DNA of 61,874 bases, taken from positions 1 to 61,874 of the forward strand of contig JAUNLB010000001.1 in NCBI GenBank assembly GCA_030532485.1. Reading direction: 5' to 3'. This document shows, piece after piece, positions 684 to 13,484 of the stretch; the stretch's first letter is position 1; every line of letters starts with the position of its first letter. The DNA is from Pseudoclavibacter sp. GTDB lineage: Bacteria; Actinomycetota; Actinomycetes; Actinomycetales; Microbacteriaceae. Both the position numbers and the translations under genes were made by a program. The notes under the pieces are model-generated. The model made no database searches. It was not told where the DNA came from and saw only the letters and a list, made by a program, of their open reading frames with translations.

Positions 684-2828
684 ATGCGGGAACCCATGGC
701 GCAGGAGCCGTCGGCCGACGGGCACGACGGAACGATCGCCGAGCGGGCGCTGGAGATCCTGCGGCGCCTGAGCGGACGCGCGGACGCCGAGTTCCGTCCC
801 GGCCAGCTGGAGGCGATCCTGGCGCTCGTGGAGGAGCGCCGCCGCACGCTCGTCGTCCAGCGCACCGGCTGGGGCAAGTCCGCCGTCTACTTCATCGCGA
901 GCCTGCTGCTGCGCGAGCGGGGATCGGGGCCCACGCTGCTCGTCTCGCCCCTGCTGGCCCTCATGCGCGATCAGATCGCCGCCGCCGAGCGGGCGGGCGT
1001 GCGGGCCGCCACGCTGAACTCGGCGAACCAGCACGAGTGGCGCGAGATCTCCCAACGACTCGCCGACGACGAGGTGGACGTGCTGCTCGTCTCACCCGAA
1101 CGGCTCAACAATCCGGGGTTCCGCGAAGAGCACCTGCCCCGGCTCACCTCCTCCACCGGCCTGGTGGTCGTGGACGAGGCGCACTGCATCTCGGACTGGG
1201 GGCACGACTTCCGGCCCGACTACCGGCGCATCGCCCGGCTCGTGGCCGGGCTGCCCGAGGGGCTGCCCGTGCTGGCCACCACGGCCACCGCGAACGAGCG
1301 GGTCGTCCGGGACGTCGAGGAGCAGCTCGCCGGCCCGGCCGGGGCGCCGCACGGGGTGCTCACCCTGCGCGGTTCGCTCGCCCGCGACTCGCTGCGTCTG
1401 GGGGTGCTGCGGCTGGCGGACGCGCAGGAGCGGCTCGCCTGGCTCGTGACGCATCTGCGGGAGCTGCCCGGCAGCGGCATCGTCTACGCCCTCACGGTCG
1501 CCGCGGCCGACGACACCGCTCGGATGCTGCGCGAGGCCGGATACGAGGTCGACTCCTACACGGGCAAGGCCGACCCCGAGGCCCGCGAGCGCATGGAGGC
1601 CCGGCTGAAGGAGAACCGGTGCAAGGCGCTCGTGGCCACGAGCGCGCTCGGCATGGGCTTCGACAAGCCCGACCTGGGATTCATCGTGCACCTGGGCGCC
1701 CCCTCCTCCCCGGTCGCCTACTACCAGCAGATCGGCCGGGCGGGCCGCGGTTCCGAGGACGCCCGGGTGCTGCTGCTGCCGGGCGCCGAGGACGCCGAGA
1801 TCTGGCGGTACTTCGCGACCGCCTCGATGCCGGTGGAAGAGACGGCCAGGCAGGTCATCGCCGCGCTCGGCCCGGAGCCCGTCTCCACCCCCGAGCTGGA
1901 GACCCGGGTGGAGCTGCGGCGCACTCGGCTGGAGCTGCTGCTCAAGGTGCTGGACGTGGAGGGCGCGGTCGCCCGGGTGCGGGGAGGCTGGGTGACGACG
2001 GGACGGCCGTGGCGCTACGACGCCGAGCGCTATGCGCGCATCGCCCGGGCCCGCGAGCAGGAGCAGCGCGCCATGCTCCGGTACCAGGAGGGCGGCGAGT
2101 GCCGCATGGCCTTCCTGCAGCGTGAGCTGGACGATCCGAGTGCGAGGCCCTGCGGCCGCTGCGACGAGTGCGCGGGCCCCTGGTACCCCGTGGGGGCAGA
2201 CGATGCGGCGCGCGAAGCGGTGGGCGGCGCGTTGCGCCGCGCAGGCGTCGTGATCGAGCCGCGCCTGCGCTGGCCGACGGGGATGGCCTGGCTCGGCGTG
2301 GAGACGGGCCGGGCGGGCATCCCCGCCGAGGAGCGCTGCCAGGAGGGCCGCGCCGTGGCCCGCCTCACGGACCTGGGCTGGGGCGGGCCGTTGCGCCGAC
2401 TGTTCCGGGGCGGGGACGGGACGGTCCCTCCCGGCATGGTCGAGGCGTGCGTGCGGGTGCTGAGCGAGTGGGGCTGGCAGCGGCGGCCCGCACTCGTCGC
2501 CTCGGTGCCCTCCCGGTCCCGGCCGCGGCTCGTCGCCTCCCTGGCGGCCGAGATCGCCCGCATCGGCCGGTTGCCGGACGCCGGTCCCCTGCGGCTGCGG
2601 GCCCCCGGGCCGCAGCGCGGGCACGGCGGCAACAGCGCGCACCGGCTGGCCGGCGTGTGGAACGCCTTCGAGGTGCCCGAACCGATGCGGGAGCTGCTGC
2701 CCGCGGGCCCGGTGCTGCTCGTCGACGACCGCGCCGACAGCCGCTGGACGCTCGCCGTCGCGGGCCGCGCCCTGCGCCGGGCGGGCGCCCCGGCCGTGCT
2801 GCCGCTCGTGCTCGCCCTGGAGGCCTGA
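684..2828 (+). CDS. recQ: RecQ-family ATP-dependent DNA helicase (actinobacterial type with C-terminal PRT-like region)
   Basis: Walker A RTGWGKS, DEAHCISDWGHDFRPDY, motif VI QQIGRAGR, Zn motif CRM...CGRCDEC, C-terminal LLVDD. ATG 684 follows GGGAGG; ATG 696 is an alternative start. Confidence 0.92.
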   Translation: MREPMAQEPSADGHDGTIAERALEILRRLSGRADAEFRPGQLEAILALVEERRRTLVVQRTGWGKSAVYFIASLLLRERGSGPTLLVSPLLALMRDQIAAAERAGVRAATLNSANQHEWREISQRLADDEVDVLLVSPERLNNPGFREEHLPRLTSSTGLVVVDEAHCISDWGHDFRPDYRRIARLVAGLPEGLPVLATTATANERVVRDVEEQLAGPAGAPHGVLTLRGSLARDSLRLGVLRLADAQERLAWLVTHLRELPGSGIVYALTVAAADDTARMLREAGYEVDSYTGKADPEARERMEARLKENRCKALVATSALGMGFDKPDLGFIVHLGAPSSPVAYYQQIGRAGRGSEDARVLLLPGAEDAEIWRYFATASMPVEETARQVIAALGPEPVSTPELETRVELRRTRLELLLKVLDVEGAVARVRGGWVTTGRPWRYDAERYARIARAREQEQRAMLRYQEGGECRMAFLQRELDDPSARPCGRCDECAGPWYPVGADDAAREAVGGALRRAGVVIEPRLRWPTGMAWLGVETGRAGIPAEERCQEGRAVARLTDLGWGGPLRRLFRGGDGTVPPGMVEACVRVLSEWGWQRRPALVASVPSRSRPRLVASLAAEIARIGRLPDAGPLRLRAPGPQRGHGGNSAHRLAGVWNAFEVPEPMRELLPAGPVLLVDDRADSRWTLAVAGRALRRAGAPAVLPLVLALEA

Positions 2829-2930
2829 GCCCGACGCGCCGCTCCGGGGCCGGACTCAGGGGCTTCATGCAAGGATCGCATCCGGGGAGGTGGACAGTGG
2901 GAGGCTGACAGCACGCTCGGAGGCGATGCC

Positions 2931-4952
2931 ATGACGGTTACGGCGATCGAGACGACCGACGAGGCGCGAGCCCTCGCCGAACAGCTCCTCGGCTCCGAAC
3001 GGCGCCGCCCCGTCGCGCTCGTGAGCATCGCCGCCGGGCAGAGCGAGCCGTTCATCGACGCCGCGCGCATCGACGCGGAGCTCGGCGACGCCGTCGACGT
3101 CTACACGATCGTCACCGGTCCGGTCACCTTCGCGTTCCGCGACGCGATGCCCCCGGGCACCGAAGCGTACGGGGGCGCGGGGCGGGTCTACCCGGTCGGC
3201 ACCGAGTGGGTGGAGGACCTGCGGGTCTCCCCCCTGCGCTTCGCGTTCGACGCCGAGCACGCGAGCCGGTCCACCGACAACCTCATCGACGACGCCCACC
3301 GCATGTCGGACCGCGCCCGCACGAACGGTCGGAACTCCCGGCACGGCGGGCTGGTCCGGACCGAGGCGCAGGTGCACGCGGTCCTGGGCGATGCCAGGGC
3401 CATCGTCAAGACGGATTCCGGCTGGAACGCGACGATCGCGCAGGAACGCATCGCCCGAGGCGTCCCCCTCGGCTGGCTGCTCTCGCCCGGGATGCGCCTC
3501 ACCGGGCTGCTGGACGAGCAGAGCCGCAGTTTCGCCCCCGATCAGCCGGCCGACCGGGCCTCGCTCGTCGCGGACTACCCGGACGGCGCCGTCGTCCTCG
3601 CGCTGGTCGCCGACGTCGCCGAGGACGCCGCCCAGCTGCTGCTGCACCCCTGGCTGACCGTGCGGGTCCGCCGCGGCGAGGTCTCGCAGGACGCGCAGGG
3701 CGCGCTGGCGATGCTCCTCGCGCCCGGCGACGTGGTGGCCGCCCGGCTCCTGCGCGGCCCGGACGGCCGCCTCCGCCTGCGCCTGTCCGATGTGCGGGAC
3801 GACGAGCCCGTGCTCCCGGCCGTCCCCTTCGCCCCCGGCGGCGAGCCGTGGCTGCTGCCGGAACGGCACCTGGACATCCCCGAACCCCCCGCCCAGCGCA
3901 GCGCCGCACCCGCCTCGACCGCACCCGCGTCGGCGGAGCCGGCCGCGCAACCGATCCGGCCGGTACCGAAGCCGGGCCCTCCCCCCGGTGCTCCGGGCCG
4001 GACCGCCGCGACCCCGCGCCCGGCGCCGCCCGAAACCGCGCCCGCACCGCGCCCGACCGTGTTCCCGACCCCGGGCGATCTGGCCCGATCCGGCGGCACG
4101 GTGGCCGTGCCGGACCCGGAGAGGACGAGCGAGAAGACGGCTCGGCGTCCCGCCGACGAATCGTCGGCCGAGCCCGCCCCGGAGACGGCGGCCGGGCCGC
4201 GACCGGCCCCCGGCCCGCACCTGGTCGCGGCCGCCGCCCAGCGGGACCTCGGTCAGGAGATGAACACGCTGCGCCTGGAGGCCGAGCGGGAGCGCCTGCG
4301 CCGCGTGCGGGCGGAGAACCGGATCGTCGAGCTGGAGCAGCAGCTCGGCGGAGCCACGGGCGGAGCCGAGCAGAGCGAGGCGCAGCGCGCCATGAGCGAG
4401 GCCTTCGACGCCGAGCGGCGGCAGCTGGCCGAGGAGATCACGAAGCTCGAGCAGCGCGGCAGCCAGATGCGGAAAGAGCTGAGCAGGCAGCGCGACGCCC
4501 TGCGGAAGGCGAACCGGACCTCCTCGGAGCGGTCCGGCCGGGTCACGGTCGACTTCGACGCCTTCCCGGACGCGGACGAGGCCGTGCGCTTCGCGATCCG
4601 CTCCAGCTGGGTCGCCCAGATCCCCGCCTACGAGAAGCGAAGCAAACCGCTGCCGGCGTACCGGCTGGGGCCGGATTTCGCCGACTCCCTGGCCAGATTC
4701 GACGAGGACCGGCAGGCGAAGGCGCTGCGCGCCGTCGTGGACGTGCTCACCGGCGCCCGGAACCGCACCGTCCACCACCTGAAGGAGAGCGAGTCCGGTC
4801 CGCCCGTGACCCGGGCCGAGGACGGCGCCGTCGCCTGGCGCGTGTACATCGAGGAGAACTCCCCCCAGGCCCGGCGGCTGCACTACTGGCAGCTCAAGGG
4901 CGGCGAGATCGAGCTGGCCCGGGTGGTGCTGCACGACGACTTCTCGATCTGA
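2931..4952 (+). CDS. Uncharacterised 673-aa protein: N-terminal domain, two S1/OB-like repeats, Pro-rich linker, coiled coil, RelE-like C-terminal domain
   Basis: GGAGG RBS and strong GC3 support the CDS. S1 pattern DGAVVLALVADV...EVS...LAPGDVVAARLL...LRLS; heptad-rich EAERERLRR...EEITKLEQ; C-terminus WRVYIE..ARRLHYWQLKGGEIELARVVLHDD. The domain calls are inference. Confidence 0.8.
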   Translation: MTVTAIETTDEARALAEQLLGSERRRPVALVSIAAGQSEPFIDAARIDAELGDAVDVYTIVTGPVTFAFRDAMPPGTEAYGGAGRVYPVGTEWVEDLRVSPLRFAFDAEHASRSTDNLIDDAHRMSDRARTNGRNSRHGGLVRTEAQVHAVLGDARAIVKTDSGWNATIAQERIARGVPLGWLLSPGMRLTGLLDEQSRSFAPDQPADRASLVADYPDGAVVLALVADVAEDAAQLLLHPWLTVRVRRGEVSQDAQGALAMLLAPGDVVAARLLRGPDGRLRLRLSDVRDDEPVLPAVPFAPGGEPWLLPERHLDIPEPPAQRSAAPASTAPASAEPAAQPIRPVPKPGPPPGAPGRTAATPRPAPPETAPAPRPTVFPTPGDLARSGGTVAVPDPERTSEKTARRPADESSAEPAPETAAGPRPAPGPHLVAAAAQRDLGQEMNTLRLEAERERLRRVRAENRIVELEQQLGGATGGAEQSEAQRAMSEAFDAERRQLAEEITKLEQRGSQMRKELSRQRDALRKANRTSSERSGRVTVDFDAFPDADEAVRFAIRSSWVAQIPAYEKRSKPLPAYRLGPDFADSLARFDEDRQAKALRAVVDVLTGARNRTVHHLKESESGPPVTRAEDGAVAWRVYIEENSPQARRLHYWQLKGGEIELARVVLHDDFSI

Positions 4953-5099
4953 CCCCGCGCGGGCGGCGGGGCGTCGACCGCGCGGCGAGCGGTGCGCCGA
5001 GGCGATCCGACGCGCCTGCGCGGCGGCGGGCGCTGCTGGCATGATCTGTGGTGACGGCCGGTCCCGGCCGCCCGCACCCCGCACGCCCAGGAGCCGCCC

Positions 5100-6732: not shown

Positions 6733-7935
6733 ATGTTCACCGATCGCGCTCCGGGGATCCTCGTGGAACTCCGCGGGAGCGACTCCCGCACCGGTTCCTG
6801 GACGCACCGGGCATTCGTTCCGGATCCGCTCCCCGCCTCGATGCCGGAGCTGTCGCCGGCGACCTTCCTGCTCGTCGCCGATGCCAGAGCGGCTCTCGCC
6901 GCCCTGGACGGTACGGCCCGTCAGCTGCCCGAACCTCGGCTGCTGCGGAAACTCGCGCTGCGGCGCGAGGCCCACAGCACCTCGGCGCTGGAGGGGACGT
7001 ACGCACCGCTGGCGGAGGTGGTCACCGCGGACGAGGAGGAGACCGCCTCGCTCGAGCTCGTCGAGATCCTCAACTACGTGCGGATGGCGAAGCTCGGCTT
7101 CGCCCGGGTGTCCGAGGGGCAGGCGATCACCCGCTCGATGCTCGCCGAACTGCAGGGCGTCCTCATGCGGGGAACCCGCCTCGAACCGCACGCGGGACGG
7201 CTCCGGGACGTCCCGGTGGTGATCGGGCGCCGCGAGGACGCGGGCCCCGAGGAGCTGCCCGTGCACGCCGCGCGGTTCGTCCCGCCGCCGCCCGGCGACC
7301 ACCTGATCGCCGGCGTGGACGCGCTCGTCGAGTGGATGCGCACGGACCATCGCGGGCGCATCGACCCCGTCGTCGCCGCCGCGATGCTGCACTCCCAGTT
7401 CGAGACGCTCCACCCCTTCCTCGACGGCAACGGCCGGCTGGGACGCTACCTGATCAGCCTGCATCTCTTGGGCATGGGGGTGCTCGCCGAGCCCACGCTC
7501 ATCGTCTCCCCCTGGTTCGAGTCCCGGCGCGGCGAGTACTACGACGCGCTGCTGGGAGTCAGCACCGAGGGCGCCTGGGACCGGTGGGTCGCCTTCTTCG
7601 CCCGGGGCGTCCAGGAGTCCGCCGACGACACGCGGGAACGGATGATCCGGCTCGTCGTCGTGCAGGAGGAGCTGAAGGAGGTCGTCCGCGCCTCCGGCAT
7701 CCGGGCGAACAACGCCCATCGGCTCGTCGACTTCGCCGTCGCGAACCCCTCCTTCACGATCGCCCAGGCGCGCGACGGCCTGGGGATCTCCCAGACGAAT
7801 GCGAGCAAGCTCGTCGGGCAGCTGGTCGATCTGGGCGTCCTGACCCCGGTCGCCCAGCAGCGCTACCGGCGCCGCTTCGTCGCCCCGCGCATCCTGGAGG
7901 TGCTGCTGGACGATCGGGGGGCGCGGCGCGATTGA
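6733..7935 (+). CDS. Fic-domain protein, class II (N-terminal inhibitory motif, C-terminal HTH)
   Basis: Catalytic HPFLDGNGRLGR; inhibitory (S/T)xxxE(G/N) motif TSALEG; C-terminal wHTH-like FTIAQARDGLGISQTNASKLVGQLVDLGVL. Confidence 0.9.
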   Translation: MFTDRAPGILVELRGSDSRTGSWTHRAFVPDPLPASMPELSPATFLLVADARAALAALDGTARQLPEPRLLRKLALRREAHSTSALEGTYAPLAEVVTADEEETASLELVEILNYVRMAKLGFARVSEGQAITRSMLAELQGVLMRGTRLEPHAGRLRDVPVVIGRREDAGPEELPVHAARFVPPPPGDHLIAGVDALVEWMRTDHRGRIDPVVAAAMLHSQFETLHPFLDGNGRLGRYLISLHLLGMGVLAEPTLIVSPWFESRRGEYYDALLGVSTEGAWDRWVAFFARGVQESADDTRERMIRLVVVQEELKEVVRASGIRANNAHRLVDFAVANPSFTIAQARDGLGISQTNASKLVGQLVDLGVLTPVAQQRYRRRFVAPRILEVLLDDRGARRD

Positions 7936-7945
7936 GCCTCCCGCC

Positions 7946-8935
7946 TCAGCCGAGCTGCCGCTCCAGCCACGCCTCGTCCACGATGGGGGTGCCGTAGCGG
8001 CGGGCCGTGTCCGCCTTCTTGGAGAGCGAGTCCGGATCGGCCGCGACCAGCAGCTCGGTCGCCTTCGTCACCCTGGGCTGCACGACGCAGCCGCGGGCGG
8101 TCAGGCGGCGCTCCCACTCCTCGCGCTCCAGGCGCATCCGCCCCGTGAGGACGACGGTCACGCCCGGGCGGAGCGGAGCCGCACGGCGAGAGGGGGCAGT
8201 CGGGCGAACCGTACGCTGCGCCAGCTCACGCGGCAGCGCCCTCGCCCGCTGGCCCGTGGTCCCGACCATCGCGGCCCGGAACGGCGTCCGGGGGTGCTCC
8301 GCCCATACCGGAGAGCGCGCGTGCGCGCGCAGATATGCGGCCAGCAGCCTCGCGGTCGCCTCCGCATCGCCGAAGGCGCTGTGGGCACCGCGATTGCGGA
8401 TGCCGAACGCCTCGCAGCACTCCCCGAGCCCGCGCCCTCGCCCGGGCAGCAGTTTCGCGGCCAGCCGCATCGTGCACAGGGCCGGCACCGGCAGCTCGTC
8501 GCTCTGCAGGCATCCGGCGCGACGCCACTCGGCGGCCAGGAATGCCGCGTCGAACGCGGCATTGTGGGCGACCACGATACGACCGTCGAGCAGCTCGCGC
8601 ACCTGGTCGGCGATCTGCTCGAATCGGGGCGCATCGCGCATCTCCGCGCCTCGCAGACCGTGCACGTGCACCGGTCCCAGATCTCGGCCCGGATGCACGA
8701 GCGTCTGCCAGCCGCCCGTGATCCGCCCGTCCGGATCGCAGTGCACGATCGCGATCTCGACGATCCGGTTGCTCCGGCGCCCCACACCCGTCGTCTCCAG
8801 GTCGATGACGGCGTAGCCGAGCGATCCCTCCGCCGCGGTGCTCGGAGGGCTTGCCCGAAGCTCCCGGGAGGAGAGGGAGCGCACGAGCGCCCCGAGCCGA
8901 CGGGCGAGCGCAGGAACATCCCTCATCGTGTTCAT
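7946..8935 (-). CDS. DEDDh 3'-5' exonuclease (DnaQ/epsilon-like) with C-terminal BRCT domain
   Basis: VIDLETTG, VAHNAAFD, HSAFGDA; BRCT-like VVLTG...VTKATELLVAADPDSLSKKADTARRYGTPIVDE. Confidence 0.88.
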   Translation of the reverse strand: MNTMRDVPALARRLGALVRSLSSRELRASPPSTAAEGSLGYAVIDLETTGVGRRSNRIVEIAIVHCDPDGRITGGWQTLVHPGRDLGPVHVHGLRGAEMRDAPRFEQIADQVRELLDGRIVVAHNAAFDAAFLAAEWRRAGCLQSDELPVPALCTMRLAAKLLPGRGRGLGECCEAFGIRNRGAHSAFGDAEATARLLAAYLRAHARSPVWAEHPRTPFRAAMVGTTGQRARALPRELAQRTVRPTAPSRRAAPLRPGVTVVLTGRMRLEREEWERRLTARGCVVQPRVTKATELLVAADPDSLSKKADTARRYGTPIVDEAWLERQLG

Positions 8936-9058: not shown

Positions 9059-10855
9059 CTATCGCTCGCCCCGGCGCCCCAGGAGCACATCGGCGAAGTC
9101 GTTCATGATCGCCGTGGGGGAGCCGTCGGGGTTCATCTCCATGTACTCGCCGTGCCGGTCGACCATTCCGGCCATGCTGTCGGGCGAGCTGGGGACGAAG
9201 TGGTTGCCGGGCCGCTCCACGACCCTGCGCTGCTGCGCGTCGAACTGCTCTTGCCGAGCAGCGGCCGCGGTCCCCGGACCCACCGGGCCCTGATCGGAGA
9301 GATGCTCGAACCCCTGCATCCTGGTCGGATTCGCCCCGAAGTTGCGGTCGGTCCCGACCCCCTGGACGATGTCGCCGGAGGGAACCGCAGAGACGTAGGG
9401 GGTGCCGGAGATGTTGTACTCCCGCACGTCGTGGACCCCCGAACCGGGCGAGCCGAAGAGCGTCACATCGTCGACGACCCCGTGCCGCACGTTCGCAGCC
9501 GCGATGCCGGTCGTGGTCGAGCCGTAGGAGTGGCCGAACATCGAGAGGTTCGCGTCCCCGGCCTCGGAGAGACTGCGGGAGGCGTGCATCCCCTCCACGA
9601 ATCCCTGCAGAGATGCTGCTCCCTCCTCGGCCCGGGCGGTCGAGAAGGTCGCCGGGTCGGTGGGACCGGTGGGAGCGTCGTAGCCGAGCCAGGCGATGGT
9701 CGCGACGCTCTCGCCGTTCCCCCTGGCACTGGCCGTGCTCTGCAGATCGTCCGCGAAACCGACGTAGTCGCGGAGGGTGTCGCGGACGTTCGTCTTGATG
9801 CCGGGAGTGAAGGTGGCGACGTGCTCCGCGCTGTCCGGGTCGCCGATCGCGACCGCGGCGTGCACCTGCCTGCCGCTCTCCGCATCGAGCAGGGCCAGGC
9901 GCATCTCGGGTCCGGGGTCCCCGCCGCCGGCGATCCGGGCGAAGCGGTTGTCGTCGCTCAGCAGACCGTCGATCTCCTGCAGATCCGCCAAACGATTCCG
10001 CGCCGACTGGAGTTCCTCCATCGCTCGCTGCCGCGACCAGGACTCGCCGGGGCCGCCGGGCAGCACGGAGATGCTGTTGTCCAGATACCTCTCGAGCCGG
10101 TCCACCTCGGCCTGCGCCTCCTCGATGAGCCGGGGCAGGCGGATCATGTTCGCCTCGTGCCGGGAGCCGATGTCGATCCCGTCGAGGTTGCCGATCGCGT
10201 CGGGGTGCTCGCGGATGATCCGCTGCCGTTCCTCGTCGCTCAGAGAGCTCCACCAGGCGGCCACTTCGGTCGGCGACCACGCGGAGTCGGGCAGGTCCGG
10301 CAGACCCTGCGAGGCCGAGGCGTGGTCCTCGCCGCTGTCGGCCTTCCCCTCGGCGACCTTCTCCAGCCGGCTCCGGTAGTCCGTGTCCACCTGGTTCGCG
10401 AACGTGACCGCTTCCCGGATCATCTCCTCCAGGCTCGCCTTGTCGCGGAGAGCCAAGGCGTACAGCACGGGGTCGTCCGCGCAGGCGGCCAGCCTCGCCG
10501 GGGAAATCATGACGCCGCCGCCGGGGAGGATGATCAGCTCGTGCATGGCCGCGAAGCTGTGGCACTCGTGCACCTTCGTCTGCAGCAGGGACACCCCGTC
10601 CGCCGCTTCCGCAGTGGCCATCATGAGCTCGGCCACCTGGTCGACGAGGCGGTCCGTCTCGCTCACACGGCGCGTGATGAATCCGCGGATCTCCTCCGGC
10701 GAGTCTCCCTGGGACTCGAAGCCCGCGCCGCTCGCGAACAGGGCGTCCGAGACGCCTTCGACGGCCGCTTTTCGGCCCTGGCACTCCCCGACCAGCGTCA
10801 GCAGGGCGTCCGGACGCCACTGCTCGGCCTGCTCCCAGCGCACCGCCACGGTCAC
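9059..10855 (-). CDS. Alpha/beta hydrolase (DUF1023-type lipase) with helical WXG100-like N-terminus; probable type VII secretion effector
   Basis: GHSYGS nucleophile elbow, AWLGYDAP, GSPGSG, IGNLDGI, EVAAWWSSLS. The GTG start overlaps the upstream stop (GTGA). Confidence 0.8.
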   Translation of the reverse strand: MTVAVRWEQAEQWRPDALLTLVGECQGRKAAVEGVSDALFASGAGFESQGDSPEEIRGFITRRVSETDRLVDQVAELMMATAEAADGVSLLQTKVHECHSFAAMHELIILPGGGVMISPARLAACADDPVLYALALRDKASLEEMIREAVTFANQVDTDYRSRLEKVAEGKADSGEDHASASQGLPDLPDSAWSPTEVAAWWSSLSDEERQRIIREHPDAIGNLDGIDIGSRHEANMIRLPRLIEEAQAEVDRLERYLDNSISVLPGGPGESWSRQRAMEELQSARNRLADLQEIDGLLSDDNRFARIAGGGDPGPEMRLALLDAESGRQVHAAVAIGDPDSAEHVATFTPGIKTNVRDTLRDYVGFADDLQSTASARGNGESVATIAWLGYDAPTGPTDPATFSTARAEEGAASLQGFVEGMHASRSLSEAGDANLSMFGHSYGSTTTGIAAANVRHGVVDDVTLFGSPGSGVHDVREYNISGTPYVSAVPSGDIVQGVGTDRNFGANPTRMQGFEHLSDQGPVGPGTAAAARQEQFDAQQRRVVERPGNHFVPSSPDSMAGMVDRHGEYMEMNPDGSPTAIMNDFADVLLGRRGER

Positions 10856-11169
10856 CACCCCGAAGCGGTCGAAACGGAGGCGAACCCTCGGGCGCACTGC
10901 TCGTCGAGCGCGGTGAACTCGCCGTCCAAGTCGGCGATGTCCTGGGAGGCGCCGCGGAGCAGCCGGACGATCTGGTCGATCTCCCGGTCCAGCGCCTCCC
11001 CGGACCGCTGCAGGACGGCGGAACTCGAGGCGCCGGGGATCGACGACGGGACCGCGGCGGCCGCAGCCTGGAAGCCCCTCTGCGACTCCAGGCCCGAGGC
11101 CGATTCGTCGATCTTTCCCGAGAGTGCGAGCAACTCGCCCTCGATGATCTCCAAGTACGGACCGGTCAT
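10852..11169 (-). CDS. Small (105 aa) helical WXG100/ESX-substrate-like protein
   Basis: About 100-aa helix-turn-helix size and amphipathic pattern, C-terminal FTALDE (YxxxD/E-like), GAAAGG RBS, translationally coupled to the hydrolase. Confidence 0.65.
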   Translation of the reverse strand: MTGPYLEIIEGELLALSGKIDESASGLESQRGFQAAAAAVPSSIPGASSSAVLQRSGEALDREIDQIVRLLRGASQDIADLDGEFTALDEQCARGFASVSTASGW

Positions 11170-11330: not shown

Positions 11331-13484
11331 TCAGCGCAGCTCGAAGTCCGCGGCGCTCAGCTGCACGCCGTCGGGCACCGTCGCGAAGACGCGGGACGGC
11401 TCGGGTCCCGACCCGTCCGGGTCGAAGGACAGCGTGGCGCCGTTCTGAACGAGCCGCGTTTCGGGGGTCTCGGCGCCGGCCGTCGCGAACCATGCGCCGC
11501 CCGGCTCTCCGAAGACCACGCGGGGCAGCACGATCCGGTCCGCCTCCCCCTTCTCCCGGAAGTCCGCCAGGCGGTCGGCCTGCTCCCCGGGGGCCCCGGA
11601 GACGCCCGGTTGCACGACGAACACCCACGGATCGACGACGAAGCGGTCCGCCCCCTCGCCTCCCCACAGCTCGTCGGCGCCCTGGCCGCCGTGCAGCTCG
11701 TCCTCCCCGCCGCCGCCCTCGATCCGGTCCGCCCCGACCCCGCCGAAGATCACATTGCTCGATGCGTTGCCGTGCACCGTCACCCCGCTGCGGGCGATCA
11801 CCCGCAGCCGCTCCACGTCCCCCGGCATCCTCGCCTCGGCCACGCTCGCGTAGAGCGTGTCGCTCCCGTCGCCCCCGGAGATCGCGTCGTCGGCCGCATC
11901 CCAGACGAGGAGGTCGTCGCCGGCCCCGCCCCGCTCGATCCGCTCGTCGCGGTGGATCGTGCCGAAACCGCCCTGGGCGAACTCGATCTCCGGCGAGGGC
12001 AGACCGGGCAGAACGCCGCGGTGCTCCCGGATCGTCTCCGTGAACTCCGAGCCGGCCAGGCGGTTGCCGGCCACCGTCAGCCCCGTGATGCCGCCCACGA
12101 TCCGAGCCCGACCGCCCCGGTTCTCCGAGACGTCGGCGCCGAGGTAGACGATCGGCGCGTCCCCGCCCGCCGCGAGCAGCACGTTGTCGCGCACCGCGAC
12201 GTTCCGAAGCGGCCCCTGCCCGCCCGCGTAGTCGAGGAGCGTGCCGTCGGGCGCGGTGATCGTGCCGCTGCCCATGTAGGCGGCTCGGTTGATCTCCCCC
12301 TGGGCCGCGCGCGGGGCGGCCGAGCGGCCGTCCCAGAGGGCTTCGATCCCGACGACCGCGCCGCCGGCCGGGGCGGAGACGATGTTCCGCTCGAAGACCG
12401 TCCCGTGCGAGTCGGTGGCCGTGTAGAGCACCCAGTAGGGGCGGGCCCCGCCCGCGGCCACGACGACGTTGTCGGCGAAGACGTTGTCGTCGCTGCCCTG
12501 ATAGGCCTGCAGGAGCCCCTGTCCGGTGGCCCGGTGGGTGACGATCGTGTTGCCCTCCACCCGGTTGCCGTCCGAGTCGTAGGCGATGTGCACGCCGGAG
12601 GAGACGCTCTCGCCGAAGGAGTTCCCGCTCACGGTGTTGCCGCTCGAGCGGTTCTGCATCGACAGGTTCCGCACGTTGTCCGTCACCAGGTTCCCGGAGA
12701 CGGTGCCGCCGCTCACCCCGCTCAGGCCGATGCCGTAGTAGCCGCCGACGATCGTGTTGCCCGAGATCTCGGCCCCGTGGTTGACGTGCCGGTTGCCGCT
12801 CACCGTGCCGTCCTGCGCATAGCGCTTCCACACGGGCCGGCCGGGCTCGAGGGACACCGCGGAGACCTTGATCGACTCGGCCCCGGGCTTCTTCGGATCG
12901 CCCCGCTCCCCCTCGATGCGGTTCCCGGTGATCCGCAGCCCCTCCACCGGCCCGTTCCCGGCGACCACCTCGATGCCGTGCGTGTCCAGACCGGTGATCC
13001 GGTTGTCCCGGATCGTCGGGTTGAACGCGGCGTTGGCGTACACGCCCTTGGTGCCCGGGGAGTCGGCCAGGTCGATCACGAGGTTCGCGACCACCGTGTC
13101 CCGGGAGCGGCTCGCGAGCTCCACCGCGACGGGGCGGCCTCCGCTCAGCGCCACGTCCAGGGTGGCGCCGTTGCCGTCGAGGAAGGGCACCTCGTCGGGG
13201 ATCAGGAGCCCCCGCGAGAGCGGGTAGACGGCGCCGGGCGCCAGGCGGAGCCCGGCGCCGCGGCGCTTCGCCTCCGCCAACGCCTCGCGCAGCGTCGCCT
13301 CGTCCCGGCTCGCGGAGCCGGCGAGCTCGACCGCCTCGCCGGGGACCGGACCGCTCCCGCGCGGCAGGCCCGCGGCCGCGGGCGGGGAGGCGGGACCCGC
13401 CGCCTGCAGCGCCCCGGGGCCCGCCAGGCAGGCACCGAGCACGACGGAAGCGGCGAGCATCGAGCGCAGCCGGGACGACATCAT
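11331..13484 (-). CDS. Secreted right-handed parallel beta-helix protein with C-terminal RTX Ca-binding repeats
   Basis: N-terminal signal peptide; PbH1-type repeats (ISGNTIVGG, VSGNLVTDN, VEGNTIV); nonapeptides GGAGDDLLV, GGDGSDTLY, GGVGADRIE, GGGGEDELH, GGQGADELW, GGEGADRFV. Confidence 0.85.
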   Translation of the reverse strand: MMSSRLRSMLAASVVLGACLAGPGALQAAGPASPPAAAGLPRGSGPVPGEAVELAGSASRDEATLREALAEAKRRGAGLRLAPGAVYPLSRGLLIPDEVPFLDGNGATLDVALSGGRPVAVELASRSRDTVVANLVIDLADSPGTKGVYANAAFNPTIRDNRITGLDTHGIEVVAGNGPVEGLRITGNRIEGERGDPKKPGAESIKVSAVSLEPGRPVWKRYAQDGTVSGNRHVNHGAEISGNTIVGGYYGIGLSGVSGGTVSGNLVTDNVRNLSMQNRSSGNTVSGNSFGESVSSGVHIAYDSDGNRVEGNTIVTHRATGQGLLQAYQGSDDNVFADNVVVAAGGARPYWVLYTATDSHGTVFERNIVSAPAGGAVVGIEALWDGRSAAPRAAQGEINRAAYMGSGTITAPDGTLLDYAGGQGPLRNVAVRDNVLLAAGGDAPIVYLGADVSENRGGRARIVGGITGLTVAGNRLAGSEFTETIREHRGVLPGLPSPEIEFAQGGFGTIHRDERIERGGAGDDLLVWDAADDAISGGDGSDTLYASVAEARMPGDVERLRVIARSGVTVHGNASSNVIFGGVGADRIEGGGGEDELHGGQGADELWGGEGADRFVVDPWVFVVQPGVSGAPGEQADRLADFREKGEADRIVLPRVVFGEPGGAWFATAGAETPETRLVQNGATLSFDPDGSGPEPSRVFATVPDGVQLSAADFELR

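What the first reader, a model, noticed from the sequence alone, without database searches (positions are those of the whole stretch)
2931..4952. Orphan S1-S1-coiled-coil-RelE-like protein: candidate self-contained sensor/RNase (defence or stress toxin)
Seen: a modular 673-aa ORF with a globular N-domain (about 2931-3310), two beta-rich repeats (about 3350-3540 and 3570-3795), a Pro/Ala linker (about 3880-4230), a coiled coil (about 4240-4520) and a C-domain. The second repeat has an S1 pattern (G.VV...V..V...EVS....L..GD.V.A.LL....L.LS). The C-domain ends WRVYIEENSPQARRLHYWQLKGGEIELARVVLHDDFSI. Known: RelE/YafQ/HigB RNases end in an R..hhY...hEh..h..H arrangement, and many anti-phage effectors fuse a nucleic-acid sensor, an oligomerising coiled coil and a toxic nuclease. 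Inference: a single-chain RNA-sensing RNase with no adjacent antitoxin. I do not recognise this architecture as a named system.
Basis: partly seen in the sequence, partly recalled or inferred. Interest (0 to 1): 0.75.

Follow-up and report, generated by a model that had tools for sequence, protein, structure and literature searches.

The report
HEC-07 cousin with added S1 domains
This is a real, patchily spread actinobacterial protein that shares a thioredoxin-like domain with the known anti-phage protein HEC-07, adds two S1 domains, and ends in a domain predicted to be a RelE-type RNA-cutting toxin with no antitoxin gene beside it, so it is likely an untested single-gene phage-defence enzyme.

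Summary
Predicted folds are a cysteine-free thioredoxin-like domain, two S1/OB domains, a disordered linker, a coiled coil and a RelE/YafQ-fold C-domain. H615 and H668 are conserved in 98-100% of 202 relatives.

It is not an orphan. The N-domain is homologous to the thioredoxin-like domain of the tested anti-phage protein HEC-07 (HHalign 97.9%), which also ends in a RelE domain with a terminal His. It is not an HEC-07 member: it lacks the AdoMetDC-like domain, adds S1-S1, and its RelE does not align with HEC-07's by sequence.

The family is accessory (21 of 300 same-family genomes). It rides in a conjugative-element cargo slot and on megaplasmids, and has no conserved antitoxin. Defence genes lie nearby in 11-12 of 45 contexts versus 0 of 18 random stretches. 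The signal is weaker and not significant in the own-family sample.

S1 as RNA sensor is doubtful: S1-less forms exist, and the second S1 is acidic and lacks the usual aromatic RNA-binding residues. Best reading (0.5): a dormant single-chain abortive-infection RNase. Verdict: new variant of a known kind; interest 0.5.

The parts
2931..4952 (+). Whole gene, 673 aa: Trx-like / S1 / S1 / Pro-Ala linker / coiled coil / capped RelE-fold domain
   Evidence: same gene with only substitutions in contigs of 4 public runs from 4 studies
2919..2923 (+). GGAGG ribosome-binding site, 7 bases before the ATG
   Evidence: sequence
2931..3329 (+). Thioredoxin-fold domain without any Cys (res 1-133), homologous to the second domain of HEC-07; candidate trigger sensor (inferred)
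   Evidence: fold; PADLOC PDLC04161 profile 167-272, E 5e-5; HHalign 97.9%, E 4e-13; 0 Cys
3339..3542 (+). First S1/OB domain (res 137-204), near neutral, one conserved Arg (R156, 93%)
3543..3815 (+). Second S1/OB domain (res 205-295), acidic, canonical RNA-stacking aromatics absent
   Evidence: profile hit to ribosomal S1 domain 6, E 3e-4; fold
3894..4226 (+). Disordered Pro/Ala-rich linker (res 322-432)
   Evidence: pLDDT <50
4227..4532 (+). Coiled-coil helices (res 433-534)
   Evidence: weak coiled-coil family hits only
4533..4649 (+). Helical cap before the RelE core (res 535-573; helix 548-563, W560 >=90% conserved), kept in the short and S1-less forms; candidate built-in restraint (inferred)
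4650..4946 (+). RelE/YafQ-fold RNase core (res 574-672); H615 (4773-4775), R637, R648, R649, H651, H668 (4932-4934), D669 conserved in 97-100% of 202

Best explanation
This is a single-gene sister of the anti-phage protein HEC-07: a thioredoxin-like domain homologous to HEC-07's, two S1 domains, a coiled coil and a predicted RelE-fold domain, which is likely a dormant RNase that would be switched on during phage infection and would cut mRNA to stop the infected cell. Shown by sequence or search: homology of the thioredoxin-like domain to HEC-07, conserved His/Arg residues, patchy spread, no conserved cis partner. Predicted: the folds, and H668 sitting where YafQ has its general acid His87 (end register of the structural match). 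Inferred: (1) the RelE core is held off by its own helical cap or by its assembly state, not by the N-terminal domains, because coiled-coil + RelE-only forms persist intact; (2) the Cys-free thioredoxin-like domain (one or two copies) is the trigger-binding module, as the part shared with HEC-07; (3) the S1 pair is an add-on that presents RNA or docks the enzyme, as ribosomal protein S1 does for the RelE-fold RNase RegB of phage T4, or that binds a protein; (4) the outcome is abortive infection.
For: HEC-07 link: 54 of 56 members hit HEC-07 models; HHalign 97.9%; HEC-07 = AdoMetDC-like + Trx-like without CxxC + RelE with conserved His, and was among the seven candidates that reduced plaquing (bioRxiv 10.1101/2024.01.29.577857). 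HEC-07-like proteins fetched here also show a helical, charged stretch between Trx-like and RelE domains (read from the sequences). RelE fold and residues; YafQ H50 as base and H87 as acid (PMC4652777). Accessory spread: 21 of 300 same-family genomes; 3 strong matches in 400 phylum genomes; no full-length copy in 13 same-genus genomes. 12 of 72,556 plasmid records, all actinobacterial. Neighbours within 3 genes include Mokosh, Azaca, Sir2-HerA, McrBC, BREX, Druantia-E-like, type I/II/IV restriction genes and an HEC-07-like gene. Gene level: 25 of 236 distinct neighbours versus 0 of 63 random genes at PADLOC E<=1e-25 (p 0.002), or 20 of 236 without generic hits (p 0.007). Context level: 11-12 of 45 versus 0 of 18 (p 0.01-0.016). 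In 7 loci the gene sits in one cargo slot of a VirD4-bearing element whose other cargo swaps. All 6 listed SNPs in the Trx-like and C-terminal domains are synonymous.
Against: No experiment on any member. About three quarters of contexts have no recognised defence neighbour. The own-family sample is weak: 5 of 112 neighbours versus 0 of 63 (p 0.10), two of the five generic (RecQ, kinase). The control is small and has fewer genes per stretch, and I picked the 'strong' list after seeing the scan. The 79 loci were the best 80 matches of 392, rich in Nocardioides. 19 Nocardioides loci share one stable context, and the short forms sit stably among WYL/glyoxalase/MFS genes, which fits a stress role. 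The RelE domain does not align with HEC-07's RelE (E 0.09). The helix 1-2 region is net acidic (-2.1), whereas YafQ uses basic patches there to bind 16S rRNA, so ribosome-dependent cutting is uncertain. pTM 0.43 shows no fixed inter-domain packing.
Confidence: 0.5

Rival explanations
1. One reading: an anti-phage RNase in which the S1 pair is the RNA sensor that activates the RelE domain.
For: Both S1 folds are well supported. They are kept in 200 of 206 proteins collected with the full-length query. R156 is conserved in S1a. An S1 bi-module stimulates the RelE-fold RNase RegB up to 100-fold (PMC3014915).
Against: S1-less Trx-coil-RelE forms exist (3 of 79 loci; two proteins), and the window's RelE groups with such forms at modest support (82, quick tree). 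S1b is strongly acidic and lacks the aromatic RNA-binding residues. The 200 of 206 count is biased by the query.
Confidence: 0.13
2. A stress or mobile-element toxin (persistence, or element maintenance), self-restrained or neutralised in trans, and not tied to phage.
For: RelE fold. Carriage on a conjugative element and megaplasmids near HipA, SocA and Fic genes. Short forms lie beside WYL regulators and glyoxalase genes. Weak defence signal in the own family.
Against: No conserved cis antitoxin gene or RNA in 500-base flanks of 49 loci. An addiction module normally needs a labile antitoxin. It shares a domain and layout with a tested anti-phage protein.
Confidence: 0.22
3. A non-toxic, sequence-selective RNA-processing enzyme: a cellular RegB-like RNase with its S1 cofactor built in, tuning mRNA turnover.
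For: RegB precedent: RelE-like fold with an extra first helix, two catalytic His, very low basal activity, S1-stimulated, no known antitoxin. Stable residence in some lineages. No antitoxin needed.
Against: Very patchy spread and defence-island neighbours. The HEC-07-type domain is unexplained. No RegB chain appeared among the 50 fold-search rows shown, which is inconclusive.
Confidence: 0.12
4. The C-domain is a catalytically dead RelE/ParE-like binding domain.
For: ParE chains are among the fold matches. Basic ribosome patches are missing.
Against: His615, Arg637, Arg648/649, His651 and His668 are 97-100% conserved at about 35-45% overall identity.
Confidence: 0.03

Closest known systems
HEC-07 (Hma-embedded candidate 07; Payne et al., bioRxiv 10.1101/2024.01.29.577857; PADLOC PDLC04158-04161)
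   Same: Single gene; homologous Cys-free thioredoxin-like domain; C-terminal RelE-fold domain with a conserved terminal His; helical stretch between them.
   Different: No AdoMetDC-like N-domain here; two S1 domains and a long linker inserted; some relatives have a second Trx-like copy instead (27 of 206). RelE domains not alignable (E 0.09). The S1-adjacent Trx-like domains form their own branch (98/96). The PADLOC match covers only about 105 of 553 positions.
YafQ / YoeB / RelE type II toxins
   Same: Fold (Z 8.6-9.8 to YafQ). A His after helix 2 and a His after the last strand; the end register puts H668 on YafQ H87 (model 672 pairs with YafQ 91, assuming no gap).
   Different: Fused at the end of a 673-aa protein; extra N-terminal helical cap and a long hairpin insertion; no RelB/DinJ/YefM gene; helices 1-2 not basic.
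T4 RegB plus ribosomal protein S1 (PMC3014915)
   Same: RelE-like RNase with an extra first helix and two His, no known antitoxin, stimulated by an S1 bi-module. A functional analogy to S1-S1...RelE in one chain.
   Different: RegB is a phage enzyme using host S1 in trans; no sequence or fold-search link found here; the S1 domains here lack the RNA-binding aromatics.
Cami1 (CARF-fused RelE-fold CRISPR effector)
   Same: Sensor-fused RelE-fold RNase without antitoxin (mechanism recalled; weak fold row 8phb_A Z 5.1).
   Different: No CARF domain; no CRISPR neighbours seen.

Membership tests
HEC-07 | N-terminal AdoMetDC-like domain | tested here: not met
   The protein begins with the Trx-like domain; HEC-07 profile match starts at position 167; HHalign to the HEC-07 N-domain 0.1%; longer relatives carry a second Trx-like copy instead.
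HEC-07 | Thioredoxin-like domain lacking CxxC | tested here: met
   97.9%; no Cys
HEC-07 | C-terminal RelE-fold domain with conserved terminal His | tested here: met
   (H668 in 202 of 202)
HEC-07 | RelE domain homologous in sequence to that of HEC-07 | tested here: inconclusive
   HHalign 0.6%, E 0.09 against 15 HEC-07-like proteins; reversed control E 0.15; a forced alignment does pair the last strands and terminal His
HEC-07 | Full-length match to the PADLOC HEC-07 models | tested here: not met
   E 5e-5, profile 167-272 of 553 only
HEC-07 | Anti-phage activity as a single gene | not testable with these tools
   needs plaque assays
RelE/YafQ type II toxin-antitoxin toxin | RelE/microbial RNase fold | tested here: met
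RelE/YafQ type II toxin-antitoxin toxin | Catalytic-type His/Arg at YafQ-like places | tested here: met
   conservation; register inferred from aligned ranges, no residue-level superposition available
RelE/YafQ type II toxin-antitoxin toxin | Adjacent small antitoxin gene | tested here: not met
   gaps of 102 and 147 bases; no small ORF conserved across independent contexts
RelE/YafQ type II toxin-antitoxin toxin | Basic patches on helices 1-2 for 16S rRNA binding | tested here: inconclusive
   net charge -2.1 over 202, but K597 93% and R at 595 59%; crude count, no surface map
RelE/YafQ type II toxin-antitoxin toxin | Ribosome-dependent mRNA cleavage | not testable with these tools
   needs biochemistry
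S1 RNA-binding domain | OB/S1 fold | tested here: met
S1 RNA-binding domain | Aromatic RNA-stacking residues (the Phe/Phe/His positions of PNPase S1) | tested here: not met
   alignment to 4nbq_A and column profiles; one position in S1a is Trp in 40% of relatives but Ala here; that these residues bind RNA is recalled knowledge
S1 RNA-binding domain | RNA binding | not testable with these tools
   needs binding assay

The most novel reading that the evidence does not exclude
An undescribed actinobacterial family of antitoxin-free 'capped RelE' RNases that swaps modules in front of one effector (none, one or two HEC-07-type thioredoxin-like domains, zero to two S1 domains). The S1 pair is either a built-in version of the S1 cofactor that activates T4 RegB, or an acidic decoy of ribosomal protein S1 that catches phage proteins which hijack S1 and then fires the RNase.
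Probability: 0.2. Interest if true: 0.78.

Novelty: new variant of a known kind. Interest (0 to 1): 0.5.

Why it matters
If it defends, it adds a family of about 1,480 clusters at 50% identity (E<=1e-10) to actinobacterial immunity that PADLOC models match only over one domain and public sources call 'hypothetical'. Natural variants with and without S1, with one or two thioredoxin-like domains, and with neither, are a ready-made deletion series. They make testable what the HEC-07 thioredoxin-like domain senses and how a RelE RNase stays silent with no antitoxin. The parts and the sensor-plus-RNase logic are known, so the surprise is moderate.

Tried and rejected
No Pfam or NCBIfam family above cut-off; only weak coiled-coil hits. 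No PDB sequence match for the protein or the C-domain profile.

Structure prediction of two copies of residues 433-673 gave no verdict (median 0.39, mark 0.42); it is not used for or against.

No relative was found in viral contigs or in 50,697 phage records.

A type III-like RNA antitoxin or conserved small ORF was sought in 500-base flanks of 49 loci; similarity appeared only between loci that share synteny, apart from a few 32-76 base chance-level matches. No promoter or terminator consensus was found.

The idea that longer relatives carry HEC-07's AdoMetDC-like domain was rejected: the extension is a second Trx-like copy. A defined empty site in same-genus genomes was not found: their RecQ-like gene lies in other contexts, and the permease had no match at E<=1e-60 in 13 genomes.

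Literature searches: 'HEC-07' gave one relevant paper; S1 domain + RelE + anti-phage or phage defense gave 0; fused toxin-antitoxin + RelE + phage + single-gene gave 0; one search gave only the HEC paper as relevant; searches gave nothing useful. The Streptomyces systems of bioRxiv 10.1101/2025.01.08.631966 have no mention of RelE or thioredoxin in the main text. Earlier scan notes held nothing on this protein (one search listed only HEC-01/02 items).

Full report
Observation. The 673-aa ORF at 2931-4952 is real: ribosome-binding site, coding-type GC skew by codon position, and 63 full-length-range relatives at E<=0.001 among 7,996 scored candidates, all unnamed or 'hypothetical/S1 motif'. A profile search found 1,480 clusters at E<=1e-10. 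Contigs of four public runs from four studies carry the gene with substitutions only. Of 18 listed SNPs in the gene (13 further differences over the 8-kb stretch were not shown), 10 are synonymous, including all 4 in the N-domain and both in the C-domain. The window lies next to dnaA/gyrAB-like genes of a high-GC actinobacterium (names from my reading of the sequences); the closest named relatives by the RelE tree are Microbacteriaceae.

Anatomy. The AlphaFold2 model and fold searches give a thioredoxin fold at 1-129 with no cysteine, S1/OB barrels at 137-204 and 205-295, disorder at 322-438, long helices at 433-534, and a RelE/YafQ fold at 574-672. The C-domain alone models at pLDDT 96.9. Ranks 1-19 of its structural matches are all RelE, YafQ, YoeB, ParE or HigB chains (best 4q2u_B, Z 8.6, rmsd 2.3, 83 aligned). 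The ESM Atlas structure search agrees. Z values are middling and Foldseek found nothing at E<=0.001, so the call rests on the unanimity of the top rows. Over 202 relatives, H615 is 98%, R637 about 100%, R648/R649 98%, H651 97%, H668 100% and D669 99% conserved. The aligned end register places H668 on YafQ His87, the proposed general acid; H615 follows helix 2 as YafQ His50, the proposed base, does (PMC4652777, passages read; position of His50 relative to the helix partly recalled). This is inference from ranges, not a residue-level superposition.

The N-domain matches PADLOC HEC-07 models in 54 of 56 members (best E 1e-31). In the 14 inspected, the best stretch always falls in profile positions about 165-295. 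HEC-07 is described as AdoMetDC-like + thioredoxin-like without CxxC + RelE with a conserved His, and it was among seven candidates that reduced plaquing (bioRxiv 10.1101/2024.01.29.577857; part 1 of 5, section 9 and passages read; supplements closed). I pulled 15 HEC-07-like proteins from actinobacterial genomes. The thioredoxin-like domains align at 97.9% (E 4e-13). The RelE domains do not (E 0.09; reversed control 0.15), and neither the S1 domains nor an AdoMetDC-like part have counterparts. In a 57-row tree, the S1-adjacent thioredoxin-like domains form one branch (98/96) apart from the HEC-07 ones. So it likely works like HEC-07 but is not a member.

Architectures. Among 206 proteins: 173 Trx-S1-S1-RelE, 27 Trx-Trx-S1-S1-RelE, 6 partial. 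S1-less Trx-coil-RelE forms occur in 3 of 79 loci and in two more proteins. Five of 13 same-genus genomes hold an intact coil-RelE-only ORF of about 200-220 aa and one holds a broken one; none holds the full-length form. Those lie among WYL-regulator, glyoxalase-like and transporter genes. All keep the helical cap and the catalytic-type residues. Hence the RelE core is probably not restrained by the N-terminal domains, and S1 is not the family's core. The second S1 has mean net charge -7.4, and the positions that are aromatic in PNPase S1 are variable, which weakens 'RNA sensor'. A counterpoint is T4 RegB: a RelE-like RNase with an extra first helix, two catalytic His and very low basal activity, stimulated up to 100-fold by ribosomal S1, minimally by the bi-module 4-5 (PMC3014915, passages read). 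The fusion could be that pair in one chain.

Distribution and context. Matches occur in 21 of 300 same-family genomes and strongly in 3 of 400 phylum genomes (plus two weak). They are on 12 actinobacterial plasmids of 72,556, and absent from the phage and viral sets searched. I called genes on 79 loci with my own codon-score script and scanned 236 distinct neighbours within three genes. 25 hit PADLOC at E<=1e-25, five of them generic, versus 0 of 63 genes from 18 random stretches and 1 of 106 when 43 genes flanking RecQ in relatives are added. By collapsed context, 12 of 45 (11 without an orphan methyltransferase; 3 contexts with fewer than three called neighbours dropped) have a defence gene within three genes, versus 0 of 18. 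Neighbours include Mokosh, Azaca, Sir2-HerA, McrBC, BREX, Druantia-E-like and restriction genes. In 7 loci the gene fills one cargo slot between a DUF6112-led block and a VirD4 block, alone or with changing cargo. Against this, a second sample of 20 own-family loci (4 overlapping earlier ones) gave 5 of 112 (p 0.10). In the window the upstream RecQ-like helicase scores as PsyrT-like, and genes two and three downstream as SoFic-like and PDC-S48-like. The RecQ is in 10 of 13 same-genus genomes, so that hit says little. No cis antitoxin gene or RNA is conserved.

Mechanism. Most likely (0.5): a dormant single-chain RNase. A phage product binds the thioredoxin-like module, the coiled coil relays a change in assembly, the cap releases the RelE core, His615/His668 cut mRNA, and the cell stops. 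S1-S1 assists. Every step after the domain homologies is inferred. Whether it cuts on the ribosome is open, since helices 1-2 are not basic as in YafQ.

Novelty. My searches found no description of this architecture, but most subscription papers and both preprints' supplements were not visible, and it may be among their predicted families. It is a new variant of a known kind: HEC-07-type domain and layout, a distinct RelE lineage, inserted S1 pair. Interest 0.5.

Noticed in passing
G000:C202, L096:115-2016 (+): The same genome has a second, HEC-07-like gene (633-aa frame; PDLC04161 E 4e-20; C-end weakly like NsnC), so it carries both the canonical-like form and the S1 form.
   Followed up: partly
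L046:8390-11797; L189:3481-6956: An HEC-07-like gene ends 3 bases before a family member (L046), and another faces an S1-less member (L189 = L052); possible paired RelE defences.
   Followed up: partly
L028, L036, L041, L043, L044, L051, L060: Cargo slot of an actinobacterial conjugative element (DUF6112 block to VirD4 block) with swapping cargo: Mokosh, a Druantia-E-like helicase with an unannotated 1,061-aa partner, UvrD, DO-GTPase2, an HSP70-like cluster. A likely hotspot for mining new defence genes.
   Followed up: partly
L082-L087, L137-L143: Stand-alone coiled-coil + capped RelE ORFs (about 200-220 aa) in same-genus genomes, between glyoxalase-like genes and two WYL regulators; broken in G001.
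   Followed up: partly
window 696-2828 (+): RecQ-like helicase scoring as PsyrT-like (E 1e-216); in most same-genus relatives it lies shortly upstream of ComM-like and DprA-like genes, which are not beside it here.
   Followed up: partly
window 6733-7935 (+) and 7946-8935 (-): Fic protein (SoFic-like, E 7e-84) and DEDDh exonuclease-BRCT protein (PDC-S48-like, E 7e-107), convergent, two and three genes downstream.
   Followed up: no
window 9059-11169 (-) and 11331-13484 (-): A small helical protein plus a roughly 600-aa hydrolase-like protein resembling a WXG100-type pair (my reading, no family hit), and a beta-helix protein with RTX repeats.
   Followed up: no
window 4961-5018: One public run has a 56-base deletion just downstream of the stop codon between short GC repeats, so this spacer is not fixed.
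   Followed up: no
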